Shown: piece by piece, positions 7,282-19,794 of the stretch | Position numbering within the stretch: position 1 is the first letter of the stretch | Layout: each line of letters starts with the position of its first letter | Origin: Octopus sinensis | Lineage: Eukaryota | NCBI RefSeq assembly: GCF_006345805.1 | Contig: NC_043000.1 | Coordinates: forward strand, 48,670,001-48,734,000 | Direction: 5' to 3' | Length of the DNA: 64,000 nt | Notes under the pieces: model-generated | Seen by the model: the letters and a program-made list of their open reading frames with translations, nothing else | Database searches by the model: none | Told to the model about the DNA's origin: nothing | Made by a program: the position numbers and the translations under genes

Positions 7282-8250
7282 AATTATTATTATCACTGCT
7301 TTTGCACAGCTTCTAACGTTGGAAATGTACTACAGTGTCAGCTGTTCACTACCGGTGAACTAAGGTAACATCTCTTATTTTTCGAGCACCTTCCGGAATA
7401 TTCGAGTGGTCCCAAAAAGTGCTGTTTTCTGCAAGTGATCCACCCTTATTGCAGCCCCTATGTGTTCCACGTACTTCTCGAGATTTTTGCTCACTGTTCC
7501 CAGGGCTCCGACACTTATTGGTACTACTGCTACCTTTTTCATCGACCACAACTGCTTAACTTTCCAAGCTAACCTGTCATATCTGTCGACTTTTCTTTCT
7601 TCCTTACGCATACCTTGTTGTCAGCTGGGCTTGCTATATAAATGATACAGCATAGTTTGTTTTCTTCTCAGTTATGTCTGTCTGGCTTCCTATTCTCTAT
7701 CTTATGGTCACACTGAATCATAAAATCCCATAGGATCTTTGCATTTCTATTTTCGATGATGCCTTTATATAGTGGCTATATTGTCTGGGCGTCTCTTATA
7801 TTCCTTCTGGGCTAGTGGCGTACATTGGCTGGTAACATACCATATATTTTCACCCTTTTGTCCACAGATTCTGCACTTACCACTTTTTGCTGTGTTGTCT
7901 ATTATGTATTTTATGTAGTTTGTTCTTAGTGCTTGCTCTTGGGCAGCACAGATTACAGCCTCCATTTCCGGTTTTAAATCACTTTTAGTCATCCACAGCC
8001 ACCTTTTTTCTCTGCCTGTCTCATCAACAACATCCCTATGAAATTGATCATGCATTCTTTTCTTTACCCACCTATCTTCACTTTCATTCGTTTTGAATTT
8101 CTTGTATAGTGCTTTATCTTTGCAATATTTCATCCTACACAAGCCTGACCGTCTTACTCCTAATAATAGCGGTTCTGGGGCATTTTTACACACCATGCTA
8201 TGTTGTTTTCTTCTCCTCTAATGCTCACACATTATCCAATATCATAATTT
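7282..8250 (-). mobile_element. Decayed R4/Dong-like non-LTR retrotransposon fragment 2 (CCHC + RLE + 3' UTR)
   Basis: Motifs ICAAQEQALRTNY, CRICGQKGE..YVTSQCTPLAQKEYKRR, KILWDF..CDH..ENRKPD, K..RY..L..VVPISVGALG and LQKTALFGT. The 3' end runs into GATAATAATAAT. Confidence 0.9.
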
Positions 8251-8882
8251 TATTGATTGAAGATATTGTGCTTACCGGGTGTCTGTACTGTCTGTCAAGT
8301 CATAATATGAACTGATAGAACATTACGCAATATGCGCGCAGTTCCAAGTAATGCCCATTTTTTGCAATACACCTAGATTGTAGGGAATTTCTAAAGTTTC
8401 TAGATGTTTCTTTAGCGTGGTAGGTATTGAACCCAATGCTTCGATGAAAACAAGAATAACCTTTATGTTTGACTTTCGTAGTAGCCACCTCTTAGCGATC
8501 TCAATTCTCATGTCTTCATATTTTTCAATGTTTTCTCTTTCTTTCACGATGATATGTTGATCCCCTGGCACTGCCACTTTATTTATTCGGTACTCTTGTT
8601 TGTCCCTCTTAAATGTTACTATATCCGGCTTTCGGTGCTCTAACACCTTGTCTGTCTGGAAGTTAAAGTCCCAGAGTATTTTTGCCTTCCCCGTTTCGTC
8701 CATTACCTTTTCCGGTGTATGTTGGTACCAACCAACCGTTACCTCGTATCCGTACTTCCGGCATAGTAGCCAGTGAAGCTTTTGGGCTACCTTGTCGTGT
8801 CTGCACTTATACTCTTTCTGCGCAAGACATTCACAAGCACTAACAAAGTGAGTTACGCTTTCGATCCTCTTCCCACACTTAA
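8251..8882 (-). mobile_element. Decayed R4/Dong-like non-LTR retrotransposon fragment 3 (CCHC + RLE)
   Basis: HFVSACECLAQKEYKCRHDKVA..LHW lies upstream of ORF 8323-8703, which reads KILWDFNFQTDKVLEHRKPDIV...EKYED...EALG (PD-(D/E)xK-type endonuclease). Confidence 0.9.
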
Positions 8883-8884
8883 TG

Positions 8885-9228
8885 CAGATTACATCGATTT
8901 CAGTGATTAACTGGTACTAACTTCATCGAGCTCGAAAGGTGAAAAGCAAAGTCGACCTGGACAGAATTTGTAATTTAGAATCAGTCTACAAAAACCGACA
9001 AAATGTTGCTAAGCATTTTGTCCGATATACTAACGATTCTGACAGCTCACTACCTTAATACTAATATTAAAAAACCCTTTTGGGGAAATGACACTCAACT
9101 GGTACTTATGTCATCGACCCCAAAACGATGAACGCAAAGTCGTCCTCGGGGAAAGTGTGACTCAGAACGTAAGAACGGATGAAATGCCACTAAGAAATTT
9201 GTCCGGTGTGTTAGAGATTCTGCCCCTT
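8885..9228 (-). mobile_element. Two tandem degenerate family A SINE copies
   Basis: CTGGTACT..TCATCGA...GCAAAGTCG...head motif occurs at 8885-9056 and again at about 9075-9228. Confidence 0.75.
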
Positions 9229-14400: not shown

Positions 14401-14436
14401 CTTGTGGAAGTAATAATGCTACAATTAAGTTTCCAC

Positions 14437-14819
14437 TATTGTTATATTTCGGAATGGTAATTTTGTTCTTGCCAAATAAACCCAAGCACTATGTATTCGT
14501 TCTTCCTTCATTTAATAGTGTTCTTACTTTACTTTATGTCTATTTTCTGGACATCTTTCTTCACACACCTTTCCATCCTAATGGACTAATCAGAACAGAA
14601 GGAAATACATGGGATAGGAGAGTCGCTGAAGAGGACACAAGAGGGTGACGAACGATTTCCTGACAAGAGACATAAGATAATAAGAACAATAATAAACGAG
14701 CGGAGAACGAATATACAGTGCGTGTGTTTATTTGGCAAGAAGGAAAATGACCGTCCCGAAGTAAAACAATATCTGTTTCAACCACGATTTCACACCAGGA
14801 ATCTTGCAAAACAAATTCA
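14437..14819 (+). mobile_element. Asymmetric inverted-repeat element, copy 1 (Penelope-like pseudo-LTR architecture suspected)
   Basis: Arms 14437-14570 and 14640-14771 are reverse complements. A right-hand extension at 14773-14819 is shared with copy 2. Hammerhead-like CTGAAGA-G-GACAC..GTGAC-GAAC at 14626-14653. Confidence 0.7.
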
Positions 14820-15118
14820 GAAAACGTTAGTTTCCAATAATTTTCGTCAAATGTATTTTATAGGGATACATATAGTACACCAGCAATATCAAAGTAAACA
14901 TGCAAACCGAGAGGATCATCATATGAATACCTTTGGGAACATAGACGTTTATACCGCAGTCTAATATATTGAAACAATTTAAAGATAAATATATGTAGAG
15001 TTACAACTGTGATGTTGTTGGTAAAACATGTTCTTTGTCTATCTCCTTATCCTGTTGGAGATTTTGGATAAAATTGTACTAATGTGTCCTTCAAATTTAA
15101 TTAAATTCTATGTTTTTC

Positions 15119-15315: not shown

Positions 15316-15697
15316 GGACGCATGGACTAGGGGTTAGTGTGTTGCAGTCACGATCAAGAGATCGTGGTTTCAATTCCTACACCAAGTGCTGCCTTTGTTT
15401 CTTCAGTGTCTTTAAAGTATGTCAAAATTAGAGCCAAATACAACGTATGAATGATTATAATCTAAGCCACTTACAACGTTTCAATACATTTATATTTTAT
15501 TATACGCAATTATATATCTTCATGGAAAGAGAAAATAGATTCACTTACATCGATACAAGCGTGATACACCGTGCACCTCTTCAGACAACGTCAATTTGAT
15601 GGAGGGAATGAGTTAATGTGCAGCACGAACATTCGATCACTGTAAACAAATTATTCGTGCAGGTCATTCGGCAGAAGCTGAAGAGTTATACGTCGTC
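15316..15697 (+). mobile_element. Degenerate tRNA-derived SINE (family C), interrupted
   Basis: tRNA-like head GGACGCATGGACTAGGGGTTAG...GGTTTCAATTCC at 15316-15380. A probable 3' part at about 15555-15697 is followed by (CAT)n. Confidence 0.55.
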
Positions 15698-15790: not shown

Positions 15791-17985
15791 TATATATACA
15801 CACACACACACACGCATCCACACACTCATACACATATACATACTGAAAATCACGATTTCACGTCCCAATATTAAAAAGAACTTTATATTGTTGGGCATGT
15901 TAGCTATGTCCCAATGAAGTCTATTGATAATGAACAGTAATAGTCATAGAAATTATTTTGGAATTATAGCTTAAAAATAGCCCGTTGTATATACTAAAGG
16001 AAATGTATATCGATGTGAGTGAATCTATTTTCTGTTACCACGAAGATATGTAATTGCGTCTAATAAAATATAAATGTATTGAAACGTTGTAAGTGGGTTA
16101 GATTATAATCATTCCTATGTTTTATTTGGCTCTAATTTTGACATACTTTAAAGATACTTTGGCAATTAAATACAATGCACTTCTTTAATAAGCTAAAACT
16201 AATTTACCTCTAGCACTATTATTTTTTCTTCATTTTGTGTCTCATTCATTTTTCATAATTTTGCTCATATTTTTTCTTTCATTTCTTTCGGCAAATAGAC
16301 AACGTTAATCAGGTTATCTTACAGTTGATCATAAGGCATTTCGGTTAATATTTAATGAATACTGTATACATTTTTAGATTTCAATAAAAAATCAATATTT
16401 TACTTTTTGCCTAAACATATTTTTTAAGACATCCATTTGAGAATTTTTTTATAAATACTTCCTCTTTATTATTTATAATTTTTGCTCTGGAAATACTGTT
16501 TCTTGATTTTTGTTTTTCAAGTTCATAGCAGTAGTTTTAATTCGTGTGCTGCTTTTTGATGCAACTGTAGCGCAAACGATTCTTTCTTTGCTTGTGAACA
16601 AGCGAGAACACCAGTACCACGCATACTCATTCTGATTTTATATCCTGATAATAACGTGATTGTTCAGTTGAGTTTTGTCATTGAAAAGCCGCTCAGGGAA
16701 TCATTATCATCCTACATTCACAATCACATTACAGCTGAATAGATACGTGCTGCTGTCTGACTTGCCATGCCATTACATGGATTTTATGATTCCATCTATT
16801 TTCCTCATTTTCATGGCTTGTGATGTATTGAATAACTTTGATGTTTAAATCAATACAAAACAAAAACTTTCTGCATGCTCTGGTTAGAGAAAAAAGATTT
16901 ACAAGCATCAGATGATACATATCAGCTGGATTACTTTGATGATTGCATGCAAAAATCAAACACATATAATGAATTATCAAATACACCTTCCTTCATTTAT
17001 GCTATACAATGTCAGAACAGCAGAATTTCAAATCAACTCCAATGTATTTAAAACAATTATGTTTCATTTCTATTTACTCCGTTTCTAGGCATTCACATTA
17101 ACCTCGTTGTATTAGTAGTTGCTTGCAAAAAATCCCTCTAAGAAATTATTTTACGCATGATAATTACACCATGTACAAAATATTTTTGTGAAATCTATTA
17201 CATTACAAAAACGCTATTAGAAATCAAATATACGTATTCATATTATCAAACCCATCGCTAAAATTGGGATTAATTTCAAAATAGTCCATTATTAAGTTCT
17301 TTTATTCTCTTAGAATTGTGGTTACTGGTGGAGCTGTTATTTTATTGCTCTTCTGTTACACGATGGATTATCCTATTACTATTTCAGATACGTTCACTAC
17401 TTCATGTTACGCCTTTTGATTCTTTGGAGTAGAGATATTTCTAAAGTTACAAGAAAGCTTCAAAATATTTTCATATGTTATCTATGTGTGTTTATACTCT
17501 TTGCTGATGTGCTTCGTTTTATTCGCATAACTATCACAGAATTTACTGCAAAATTTTGCGAATATTCTTTTACAATATATTATCTCAATATATACATATG
17601 TTATTCTGTTTACATGAGAGTTTGATATAATAACCCTGGCGTTATTTTACGTAGGGGTTTTTAGCGTGAAGTTGAAGATCTACATTTTTGCAGTGAAAAA
17701 CCACACTCTATATATTTTTATTTTGTACTGATATTTAAAGATGAACGTTTGATGTTTCCATTCTGTTTTGTAGTTGGTTAGCATATGAATATGGTAATAT
17801 ACGTTGTCGATGTTATCAAACATACACATATTTATGTATTTAAATATATGTATGTGTGTGTGTTTATGTGTGCATCTGTATATATGTGTGCGATAATTTT
17901 AAACGATGTACTTATATTTCTGTTGAGCGTGCTTAACACAGTATTCCCTCTAGCCACTGTAGCTATCACTAGTATTACGTTAGCT

Positions 17986-18296: not shown

Positions 18297-18700
18297 CTCT
18301 CATTTCAAGACAACCATTACCTTGAGTCATAAGAGGACCTGGAGCCTTTTTGAAGGGCTACATTTGAGTTACTATTTTCATTATAATTCTACAATCAATT
18401 CGCAGAGTATCCGAAGCAGCAACACAATGGGTTGCTATTTCGGATATTTTCTTTGTACTTAACTGAGATTTCAATGTGTTATTGCCAGTGATAAACATTT
18501 AGTCCACAGAAAACGGATACCTAAACGCTGTTCTTTCTAGAAAAAAAAGGGGAAATAGCGATAACATGTATAACGGATAATAACAACATGTCACTTGCGC
18601 AATTTATACACTTGCTGAGCAGTGGGGCTACATCCGAAACCTGCAAACTGACCTTCTTAAACACTCATCCATGTCTCTGCCGTCATATATATATATATAT

Positions 18701-19277
18701 ATGTTGTTGTATTTCGTGATGGTCATTTTTCTTTATCAAATAAACACAAGTACTAATATTTGTTCTTCACTCATTTATTACTGTTCTTATTCTAACCCAT
18801 GTGCACGATGGCAACACCGTGGGCGAATACACAATTACAGAAAAATACAGGAACGGTACCAAATTTTCGGGTCCTAGGACAGCAGCAGCGACAACGGGGT
18901 TAGAGGATAGGGCTGAGGGGAAGAGCATACTGCTGCTAAGAGCAATGACACACACACACAAGCATACATACACGCACATACACACTGATGCAAACGCATG
19001 CGCATATAAGGATACACATCATATAAGAGCAGAATGGTGTAAGTGGAGCAAGAGCACACACAGACGAAAAGTGTCCCTGGAGAGGTCACAGAGGTGTGAC
19101 GAAAGATTTCCGGAAAATGGACATGAGTTTGAATAAAAACAGTAATAAACGAGTGAAGAACAAATAGATAGTGCGTGTATTTATTTGGCACAAAAAATGA
19201 CCGTCCCGAAATACAACAATATCTGTTTGTTGAAACGATTTCACATCAGGAGTCTTGCAACACAAGACAAATTCATA
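18701..19277 (+). mobile_element. Asymmetric inverted-repeat element, copy 2
   Basis: Arms 18701-18804 and 19119-19222 are reverse complements; extension at 19223-19277. Hammerhead-like CTGGAGA-G-GTCAC-AGAGGT-GTGAC-GAAA at 19077-19104. Flanked by (TA)n on both sides. Confidence 0.72.
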
Positions 19278-19281
19278 AACG

Positions 19282-19417
<136 letters not shown>

Positions 19418-19794
19418 GAATGTATTTTACCCTTGTTAACAATTAATACGGAAAAAATAGGATAAATAGTTACCAGGGTAGCAAAAAATCACACAAGAGG
19501 TTGTAACTCCTTGTTTTTAAAGGTAGAAACTTCGGGTTTACGTGGAATTTTTTGTATAATATAAAAATAAATAAATGGAGTAAATAAATAAATGGAGTAA
19601 AGCAATGTAACCTGAGGGGAAGGCCATACTGCAGCTAAGAACAACGACACAATGTGTATGTGTGTATGTATATATGTTTTACACCCGTTATTCTTTTGAA
19701 TGATATCAGTGAAATCTTCGAAACATGCGTCGGAAGTAAAAGTATTTGAATTATATCTGCGTTAAACTCCATTTATATATATATATATTCAAAA

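What the first reader, a model, noticed from the sequence alone, without database searches (positions are those of the whole stretch)
18701..19277. Asymmetric fold-back element, copy 2, confirms the architecture and complements the hammerhead
Seen: ~104-bp inverted arms, the same left start and right tail as copy 1, but a different and longer interior; flanked by (TA)n. Here helix II (GTCAC/GTGAC) and GAAA are perfect while the first box reads CTGGAGA; copy 1 has the opposite defects. The two-copy consensus is therefore a canonical CUGAAGA-G-GUCAC..GUGAC-GAAA core. Helices I and III are only partly reconstructable, which is inference.
Basis: partly seen in the sequence, partly recalled or inferred. 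Interest (0 to 1): 0.72.

Follow-up and report, generated by a model that had tools for sequence, protein, structure and literature searches.

The report
Octopus Penelope retrotransposon stump with hammerhead
The fold-back repeat and its hammerhead-shaped RNA motif are real, but this is the worn, cut-short end of a protein-coding Penelope-like jumping gene of an octopus, in a mirror-image layout already described for these elements, and this copy's ribozyme is predicted to be dead.

Summary
Observation confirmed; right end is 19282. The element is a 5'-truncated insertion of an abundant Penelope-like retrotransposon (Neptune-type motifs) in an octopus genome. Longer copies run upstream into decayed RT and GIY-YIG frames; a younger sister subfamily has 900-1120-codon frames (fold nearest telomerase). 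The left arm is an inverted second 3' end. The two ends are fixed sites 25 and 81 nt inside the element's own ORF (ATG at 19197), so the 'tail' is coding; 30 of 31 head-to-head pairs carry one short and one tailed end. The family motif is a minimal type I hammerhead (helix I, 6-bp helix II, palindromic helix III, UUC triplet, cut site predicted after 19110), with paired changes between subfamilies. This copy has A6G and a broken helix I, and its arms decayed independently. Copies 1 and 2 are different subfamilies. Layout and motif are published (PMC8557442, PMC4209133, PMC11167929), and this scan found the same kind on other octopus DNA. One aside is less ordinary: the youngest sister subfamily (2114 exact matches) has a fixed A9C core change. 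Cleavage is untested.

The parts
18685..18702 (.). Left half of the (TA)n target; its last bases overlap the element end
   Evidence: sequence
18701..18805 (-). Inverted, 5'-truncated second 3' end (pLTR piece). It ends at the short terminus (ORF +25), holds the ORF start codon equivalent and has no hammerhead
18803..18805 (.). Inversion junction; the family majorities of both arms read the same 3 nt here (one changed in this copy)
   Evidence: a contig with 0 differences spans 18772-18885 in run X3
18804..19282 (+). Main 5'-truncated copy: last part of the 3' UTR/pLTR of subfamily A, 40 of 459 scored positions (8.7%) off the family majority
19071..19115 (+). Minimal type I hammerhead motif: helix I 19071-19076/19111-19115, C3 19077, extra G 19084, helix II 19085-19090/19095-19100, GAAA 19101-19104, helix III 19104-19105/19108-19109, C17 19110. 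This copy differs from the majority at 19076, 19080 (A6G), 19093 and 19115
19118..19222 (+). Right arm, the part mirrored by the left arm
19197..19282 (+). First 27 codons or so of the element's ORF (ATG at 19197), frameshifted near the end in this copy
19222..19282 (+). One-sided tail between the short end (ORF +25) and the long end (ORF +81); 56 nt in the family, 61 nt here
19283..19417 (.). Right half of the (TA)n target, running into (ATAG)n
14437..14826 (+). Copy 1: an independent insertion of a sister subfamily (A') with the same layout; C3 at 14626

Best explanation
This is a decayed, 5'-truncated insertion of a Penelope-like retrotransposon: two 3' ends of the element lie head to head in a (TA)n tract, one stopping 25 nt and the other 81 nt inside the element's own reading frame, likely because the element's RT-endonuclease cut both DNA strands and copied its RNA twice from two internal start sites. 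Shown: family membership, the link to RT and GIY-YIG frames, the two fixed ends inside the ORF, one short plus one tailed end per pair, the hammerhead motif in the family majority, and independent decay of the arms. Inferred, by analogy with the anole element PAc: nicking of both strands, internal priming on a read-through pLTR-ORF transcript, early termination and joining of the two cDNAs. The hammerhead belonged to the source element's RNA, where it likely cut after C17 weakly and only as a dimer or with protein help. In this copy it is predicted inactive.
For:: 90 matches among 40 scored of 4475 first-look candidates; the shared unit is query 104-582, and copies end at 522 or at 565-582; family A copies extend upstream by variable lengths into broken GIY-YIG frames (L007, L018, L028) and RT frames (L017 with YVDD, L027); sister copies about 65% identical in RT have open frames of 882-1120 codons and the same layout with 98.8-99.4% identical arms (L046, L047, L050). 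RVT_1 E 0.0022; GIY-YIG E 3.3e-4 (both below the curated cut-off); model pLDDT 91.5, top three Foldseek hits are telomerase RTs. DKS(G), YVDD, CX4CxxC linker, CCHH residues; 13 of 14 copies read through the long end, 10 of them on into the ORF body; the frame from that ATG stays open 197 and 224 codons in L132 and L133, and homologues P0030 and P0047 align from their residue 7; 78 short and 74 tailed ends; 33 of 35 classifiable pairs are mixed, 30 of 31 after removing four loci whose 'tail' was an internal read-through; of 16 close pairs among the first 100 listed hits, 12 are head to head; arms differ by 10 left-only, 5 right-only and 1 shared change. Literature: PMC8557442 (inverted 5'-truncated copy, one tail, (TA)n), PMC11167929 (two internal RT start sites inside the ORF make the tail), PMC4209133 (minimal hammerheads in pLTRs).
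Against: No intact ORF of subfamily A itself was found; the intact frames are from sister subfamily B. Pfam scores are below cut-off. The tail is 56 nt, longer than the usual 30-40. Among the four removed loci, L136 has two short outer ends, and L108 is short plus short. Junctions are mixed: 8 of 21 show 2-4 nt overlap and 13 show gaps of 2-35 nt, with no control. Only 49 of 78 short and 31 of 74 tailed ends meet (TA)n under a strict pattern. Folding gives no support for helix I or III in subfamily A monomers, and the helix III duplex is 0.0 kcal/mol. The distal two pairs of helix I do not hold in subfamily A'.
Confidence: 0.93

Rival explanations
1. A non-autonomous retrozyme or circular-RNA replicon: short non-coding units with active hammerheads, spread by the PLE enzyme.
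For: Most listed copies are short and hold no ORF. 24 of 46 group-A copies keep an intact core. Animal retrozymes are reported to derive from pLTRs (10.64898/2026.07.22.740005, part 1 read).
Against: 5' ends are scattered and run into the ORF. Close pairs are mostly inverted (12 of 16), 3 are tandem. This insertion holds a single hammerhead, since the left arm begins downstream of the cut site. Core positions erode in genomic copies at 6.4% against 7.7-10.5% for flanks.
Confidence: 0.04
2. A host-used fold-back RNA or ribozyme at this locus, kept by selection.
For: Strong hairpin (z = -8.1). The same hammerhead variant stretch 19031-19110 stands with 0 differences in a run of a second organism label (X4).
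Against: The arms carry 15 private changes and 1 shared one; arm-to-arm distance is about twice the distance to the family majority, as expected for neutral decay. The core has A6G and helix I has lost two pairs. X4's flanks differ at only 4 places in about 370 nt, so identity over 80 nt says little.
Confidence: 0.02
3. A foldback or MITE-type DNA transposon with terminal inverted repeats.
For: Long inverted arms and TA flanks.
Against: The right arm is not terminal (61-nt tail). Arm length varies from about 100 nt to kilobases among copies. Many copies have no inverted arm. The linked protein is RT plus GIY-YIG, not a transposase.
Confidence: 0.01

Closest known systems
Insertion units of EN+ Penelope-like elements, Neptune/Nematis type (Craig et al. 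2021, PMC8557442)
   Same: C-terminal GIY-YIG with CCHH, CX2-5CxxC linker, telomerase-like RT, 5' truncation, adjacent inverted truncated copy, tail on one end, (TA)n target, hammerhead in the pLTR
   Different: Tail is 56 nt rather than 30-40. The supplement rows I saw name octopus Naiad and Hydra families only. Placement in Neptune versus Nematis was not tested on a tree.
PAc (Poseidon) of Anolis carolinensis (Frangieh et al. 2024, PMC11167929)
   Same: Element ends lie inside the ORF; the tail is the stretch between two start sites; AT-rich target; hammerhead at the pLTR-ORF junction
   Different: Here the hammerhead cut site lies 87 nt upstream of the ATG rather than inside the ORF, and the ends are at +25 and +81 rather than about +111-118. 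No biochemistry here.
Minimal type I hammerheads of metazoan PLEs (Cervera and De la Pena 2014, PMC4209133)
   Same: Long helix II, short helix I, extra base between 9 and 10.1, G10.1-C11.1, short palindromic helix III; pairs on opposite strands 100-700 bp apart are described there
   Different: Keeps a 2-bp helix III with a 2-nt loop (like their Drosophila and shrimp variants). The youngest sister subfamily has C at position 9.
Non-LTR retrozymes (PMC7229834, search listing only; 10.64898/2026.07.22.740005, part 1)
   Same: Type I hammerhead; pLTR-related sequence
   Different: No tandem array of fixed monomers with intact ribozymes; the copies are truncations of a coding element.

Membership tests
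EN+ Penelope-like element (Neptune/Nematis type) | Telomerase-like RT with DKG-type and YxDD motifs | tested here: met
   Sister subfamily B: DKSG and YVDD, top fold hits telomerase. Subfamily A: decayed frame with YVDD, about 65% identical.
EN+ Penelope-like element (Neptune/Nematis type) | C-terminal GIY-YIG endonuclease with CCHH | tested here: met
   Pfam GIY-YIG E 3.3e-4, 21.3 bits against cut-off 22.6; homologue P0077 passes the cut-off; two Cys and two His conserved.
EN+ Penelope-like element (Neptune/Nematis type) | CX2-5CxxC linker between RT and EN | tested here: met
   CX4CxxC in L047 and most homologues shown.
EN+ Penelope-like element (Neptune/Nematis type) | pLTR formed by partial tandem, with an adjacent inverted 5'-truncated copy | tested here: met
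   L132, L135, L137 show inverted end + truncated copy + full unit of 3.9-4.6 kb; pairs.
EN+ Penelope-like element (Neptune/Nematis type) | Tail extension on one end only | tested here: met
   30 of 31 pairs; 56 nt long.
EN+ Penelope-like element (Neptune/Nematis type) | (TA)n target preference | tested here: met
   Both flanks here; 80 of 152 ends under a strict pattern. Copy 1 is an exception.
Neptune clade specifically | Groups with reference Neptune RTs on a tree | not tested
EN+ Penelope-like element | Retained intron in the 5' UTR (some families) | not tested
   Not examined.
Hydra clade PLE | DKT motif, CCHH absent, CxCX5C linker | tested here: not met
   DKS, CCHH present (definition).
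Naiad/Chlamys PLE | N-terminal endonuclease, no canonical hammerhead | tested here: not met
   Endonuclease is C-terminal.
Minimal type I hammerhead (family majority) | Core CUGANGA...GAAA with A15.1-U16.1 and H17 | tested here: met
   Every core position is the majority in 46 group-A copies (40-46 of 46); H17 is C 40, U 6.
Minimal type I hammerhead (family majority) | Helices I, II, III | tested here: met
   91.4% of 806 cells paired, slid controls 26-45%. Double changes between A and B at two helix I pairs; one-sided at another and in helix III. Helix II does not covary. The distal helix I pair fails in A'.
Minimal type I hammerhead (this copy) | Intact core and helix I | tested here: not met
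   A6G at 19080; changes at 19076 and 19115 break two helix I pairs.
Minimal type I hammerhead | Self-cleavage after H17 | not testable with these tools
   Needs an in vitro assay.
Non-LTR retrozyme | Tandem non-coding monomers each with an intact hammerhead | tested here: not met
   One hammerhead in this insertion; 3 of 16 close pairs tandem; variable 5' ends running into an ORF.
Foldback/MITE DNA transposon | Fixed terminal inverted repeats at both ends | tested here: not met
   One-sided tail and variable arms.

The most novel reading that the evidence does not exclude
This octopus lineage is a natural experiment on what the PLE hammerhead is for. Older waves (A, and B with A9) carry a canonical core, but the youngest wave, the one with long open frames and at least 2114 exact core matches, fixed A9C and spread anyway. 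Either self-cleavage is dispensable for retrotransposition in vivo, or A9C is an undescribed working variant. The near-strict pairing of one +25 end with one +81 end would then be the genomic footprint of a dimeric RT priming both cut strands at two different sites of one RNA.
Probability: 0.4. Interest if true: 0.5.

Novelty: new member of a known kind. Interest (0 to 1): 0.24.

Why it matters
The locus itself is an ordinary dead repeat. It matters for annotation: hairpin-plus-hammerhead sites in octopus DNA of this kind are PLE stumps, not retrozymes. The family is useful as a test system, because it has young long-ORF copies, two sharply defined ends inside the ORF, and three age classes that differ at one ribozyme core position. 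That would allow a direct test of whether hammerhead cleavage is needed for PLE spread, a question left open in PMC8557442 and PMC11167929.

Tried and rejected
Rfam scan of the window at E up to 5: 149 matches, none a hammerhead family; minimal hammerheads seem to be missed by those models. Pfam on the two L017 frames gave nothing useful. PDB sequence search with the single protein gave only a chance hit; the profile found only weak RT matches. No ESM Atlas result was obtained for the endonuclease part. Sequencing runs: no RNA holder listed; the two guessed-RNA runs cover only repeat parts and not the flanks; no conclusion on expression is drawn. Rejected: copies 1 and 2 as the two pLTRs of one full element. 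Their hammerheads are 4451 nt apart, close to the 4413-4554-nt unit, but tblastn of the window with the B protein found nothing and copy 2 has its own inverted arm and (TA)n. Rejected: helix I using the second GGACA at 19119-19123, which would give a G at position 17. A tail hairpin (lead from e1-9869566): only a weak 6-bp stem around the short end is shared by A and B, and coding constraint explains the tail's conservation. Junction microhomology across 23 loci: 2 without a clean junction, mixed result, no control. The tree is poorly rooted, and five B copies were mislabelled A by my rule, so it is used only qualitatively; the same mislabelling and the A' copies inflate the 12.8% figure. Literature searches for A9C (0 papers; no direct A9C datum in the passages read) and for an octopus Neptune family (only PMC8557442 relevant) are limited to the open library. 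The supplement of PMC8557442 was cut when stored and I saw 3 rows; bioRxiv supplements were not seen; Repbase/Dfam were not available, so the family may already be named.

Full report
Observation. The region 18701-19282 holds inverted arms 18701-18805 and 19118-19222, 84% complementary, followed by 61 more bases and (TA)n on both sides. The strand folds far better than shuffles (z = -8.1, 0 of 100). The only other long match in the window is copy 1 at about 14437-14826. A model built from 62 relatives finds these two sites (70.9 and 45.6 bits, both were in the training set) and nothing else below E 0.5. A contig in run X3 spans the inversion junction with no differences, at the depth of the unique flank; this run may be the assembly's own sample.

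Family. The genome is 2.72 Gb. The closest named protein to the family's ORF is 98% identical and labelled Octopus vulgaris. The element gave 4475 first-look candidates, of which 40 were scored. The shared unit starts near 18804; the left arm is the reverse complement of the unit's own 3' part. Many copies have no inverted arm within 1.5 kb. Upstream homology among 30 copies fades at scattered points up to 1.5 kb, as expected for 5' truncation. Several copies run into broken coding frames: a GIY-YIG-like stretch in L007, L018 and L028, and RT plus endonuclease in L017 and L027.

The coding element. The L017 RT frame found 150 scored matches among 2745 candidates, many about 65% identical and some in long open frames. 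Six of those fetched have frames of 882-1120 codons. They score weakly on RVT_1 and GIY-YIG, both under the curated cut-off. The 715-residue model (pLDDT 91.5) has telomerase RTs as its top three fold matches. An alignment of 90 proteins shows DKS(G), YP, GAIG, YVDD, a CX4CxxC linker, and the CCHH and catalytic R/H/E/N residues. By the definitions in PMC8557442 (passages) this fits Neptune or Nematis and excludes Hydra, Naiad and Penelope/Poseidon. I could not place it on a tree with references.

The two ends. Copies stop at one of two sites: 78 short and 74 tailed ends. Searching the long end for read-through gave 14 copies; 13 continue with the same sequence and 10 go on into the ORF body. 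The frame opens at an ATG that corresponds to window 19197 and stays open for up to 224 codons; two outside homologues align from their seventh residue. The short end is thus ORF +25 and the long end +81, and the tail is 56 coding bases, similar in amino acids across subfamilies. L135 and L137 give unit lengths of 4554 and 4413 nt. This matches the PAc result that RT starts at two sites inside the ORF and the tail lies between them (PMC11167929, parts 1-2 of 4 read).

The mirror. Of 36 head-to-head pairs, 1 was cut off; 33 of 35 have one short and one tailed end. Four loci (L132, L133, L136, L137) were internal read-throughs; without them it is 30 of 31, against about half if ends were independent. 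By their outer ends L132 is mixed, L136 is short plus short, L133 has a partial tail and L137 was not resolved. Either the long or the short partner may carry the tail (L046 versus L051). Among the first 100 listed hits, 16 neighbours lie within 10 kb: 12 head to head, 3 tandem, 1 tail to tail. The loci were chosen by similarity and are not a random sample. My mechanism, inferred: both strands of (TA)n are nicked, each 3' end primes cDNA at one of the two sites, both stop early and are joined. At this junction both majorities share 3 nt. Across 21 junctions the picture is mixed, 8 overlaps and 13 gaps.

The hammerhead. In 46 distinct group-A copies (including copy 1 and one mislabelled B copy), each core position is the majority; 24 have a whole core and 18 also keep helix II and the first two pairs of helix I. 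Architecture: 5-bp helix I with one bulge, CUGAAGA, an extra G, a 6-bp helix II, GAAA, a 2-bp helix III with a 2-nt loop in a self-complementary 6-mer, and UUC. C17 is 19110. This is the minimal PLE hammerhead of PMC4209133 (parts 1-2 of 4 read), which cut poorly in vitro and only as multimers. I aligned 62 of the 81 copies, leaving out 19 with indels or near-identical young copies. 91.4% of cells pair. Between A and B, two helix I pairs change on both sides and one helix I and one helix III pair change on one side. These are a few events, not dozens. Helix II is invariant. Subfamily A', to which copy 1 belongs, keeps the three inner helix I pairs but not the next one. ViennaRNA forms only helix II in A monomers and gives the helix III duplex no stability.

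This copy. It is 8.7% from the family majority. Its arms differ by 10 left-only, 5 right-only and 1 shared change. It has A6G and has lost two helix I pairs. Changes in the CUGA turn gave low activity in a mutational scan (PMC9901934, passages), and A6C is slow in Mg2+ (PMC3088659, passages and section 8; PMC7151607, passages). A6G itself was not in those passages. The left arm has no hammerhead, so there is no partner within the insertion. Across A copies the core erodes at 6.4%, helix II at 3.9% and flanks at 7.7-10.5% (non-CpG sites). I read this as decay after insertion.

The aside. Exact core matches: subfamily A 199, B with A9 395, B with C9 2114; exact counts favour young copies. Median distance to the own majority is 2.3% for C9 (52 copies) and 7.5% for A9 (12 copies), and C9 nests among A9 copies in a rough tree. 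A9 is part of the consensus core (PMC7151607); that it pairs with the general base G12 is recalled, while G12's role is in PMC6155905 (passages).

Comparison and verdict. The layout is Fig. 2 of PMC8557442 as described in its legend. This scan has 18 earlier findings of the same kind in at least 4 genomes, and none near this place or by sequence. The retrozyme preprint (part 1 of 5) defines retrozymes by tandem units, which this is not. Verdict: real, a new member of a known kind, interest 0.24. The A9C wave is the part worth a bench test.

Noticed in passing
G000, e.g. L046:8598-8665, L047:7355-7422: The youngest sister subfamily (long open frames) has C at hammerhead position 9 in 30 of 35 copies examined; 2114 exact matches against 395 for the A9 form.
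   Followed up: partly
window 14428-14436 and 14827-14835: Copy 1 is not in (TA)n; the same 8-9 bases stand on both sides in direct orientation and look like a target-site duplication.
   Followed up: no
window 19227-19234: Eight bases of the tail are replaced by the reverse complement of an overlapping quasi-palindrome, likely a template-switch mutation (seen by comparing).
   Followed up: no
window 15405-15555 and 16008-16158: A 151-nt inverted repeat (93%) whose arm matched only these two places in the genome search; likely a local inverted duplication, unrelated to the PLE.
   Followed up: partly
window 19612-19651: An isolated 40-nt fragment of the same family's 3' UTR, 330 nt right of the element.
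   Followed up: partly
window 7768-8916 (-): Two frames of 150 and 197 codons that look, from recall, like the C-terminal end of a non-LTR retrotransposon protein; Pfam gave only weak hits (zf-RVT E 0.095).
   Followed up: partly
L118, L121, L129: Short tandem units that read about 110-130 nt past the long end and then jump back into the pLTR, giving mini-repeats of a few hundred bases; possible retrozyme-like precursors.
   Followed up: no
L107/L111 (G000:C2:96180964-96181857): Two complete fold-back units of subfamily A' lie next to each other as a larger mirror image.
   Followed up: no
L046, L047 ORF N-terminal third: A long Asn/Ser/Gly-rich low-complexity insert precedes the RT; a similar (AAC)n-rich stretch lies in the subfamily A 3' UTR just upstream of the window's truncation point.
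   Followed up: no
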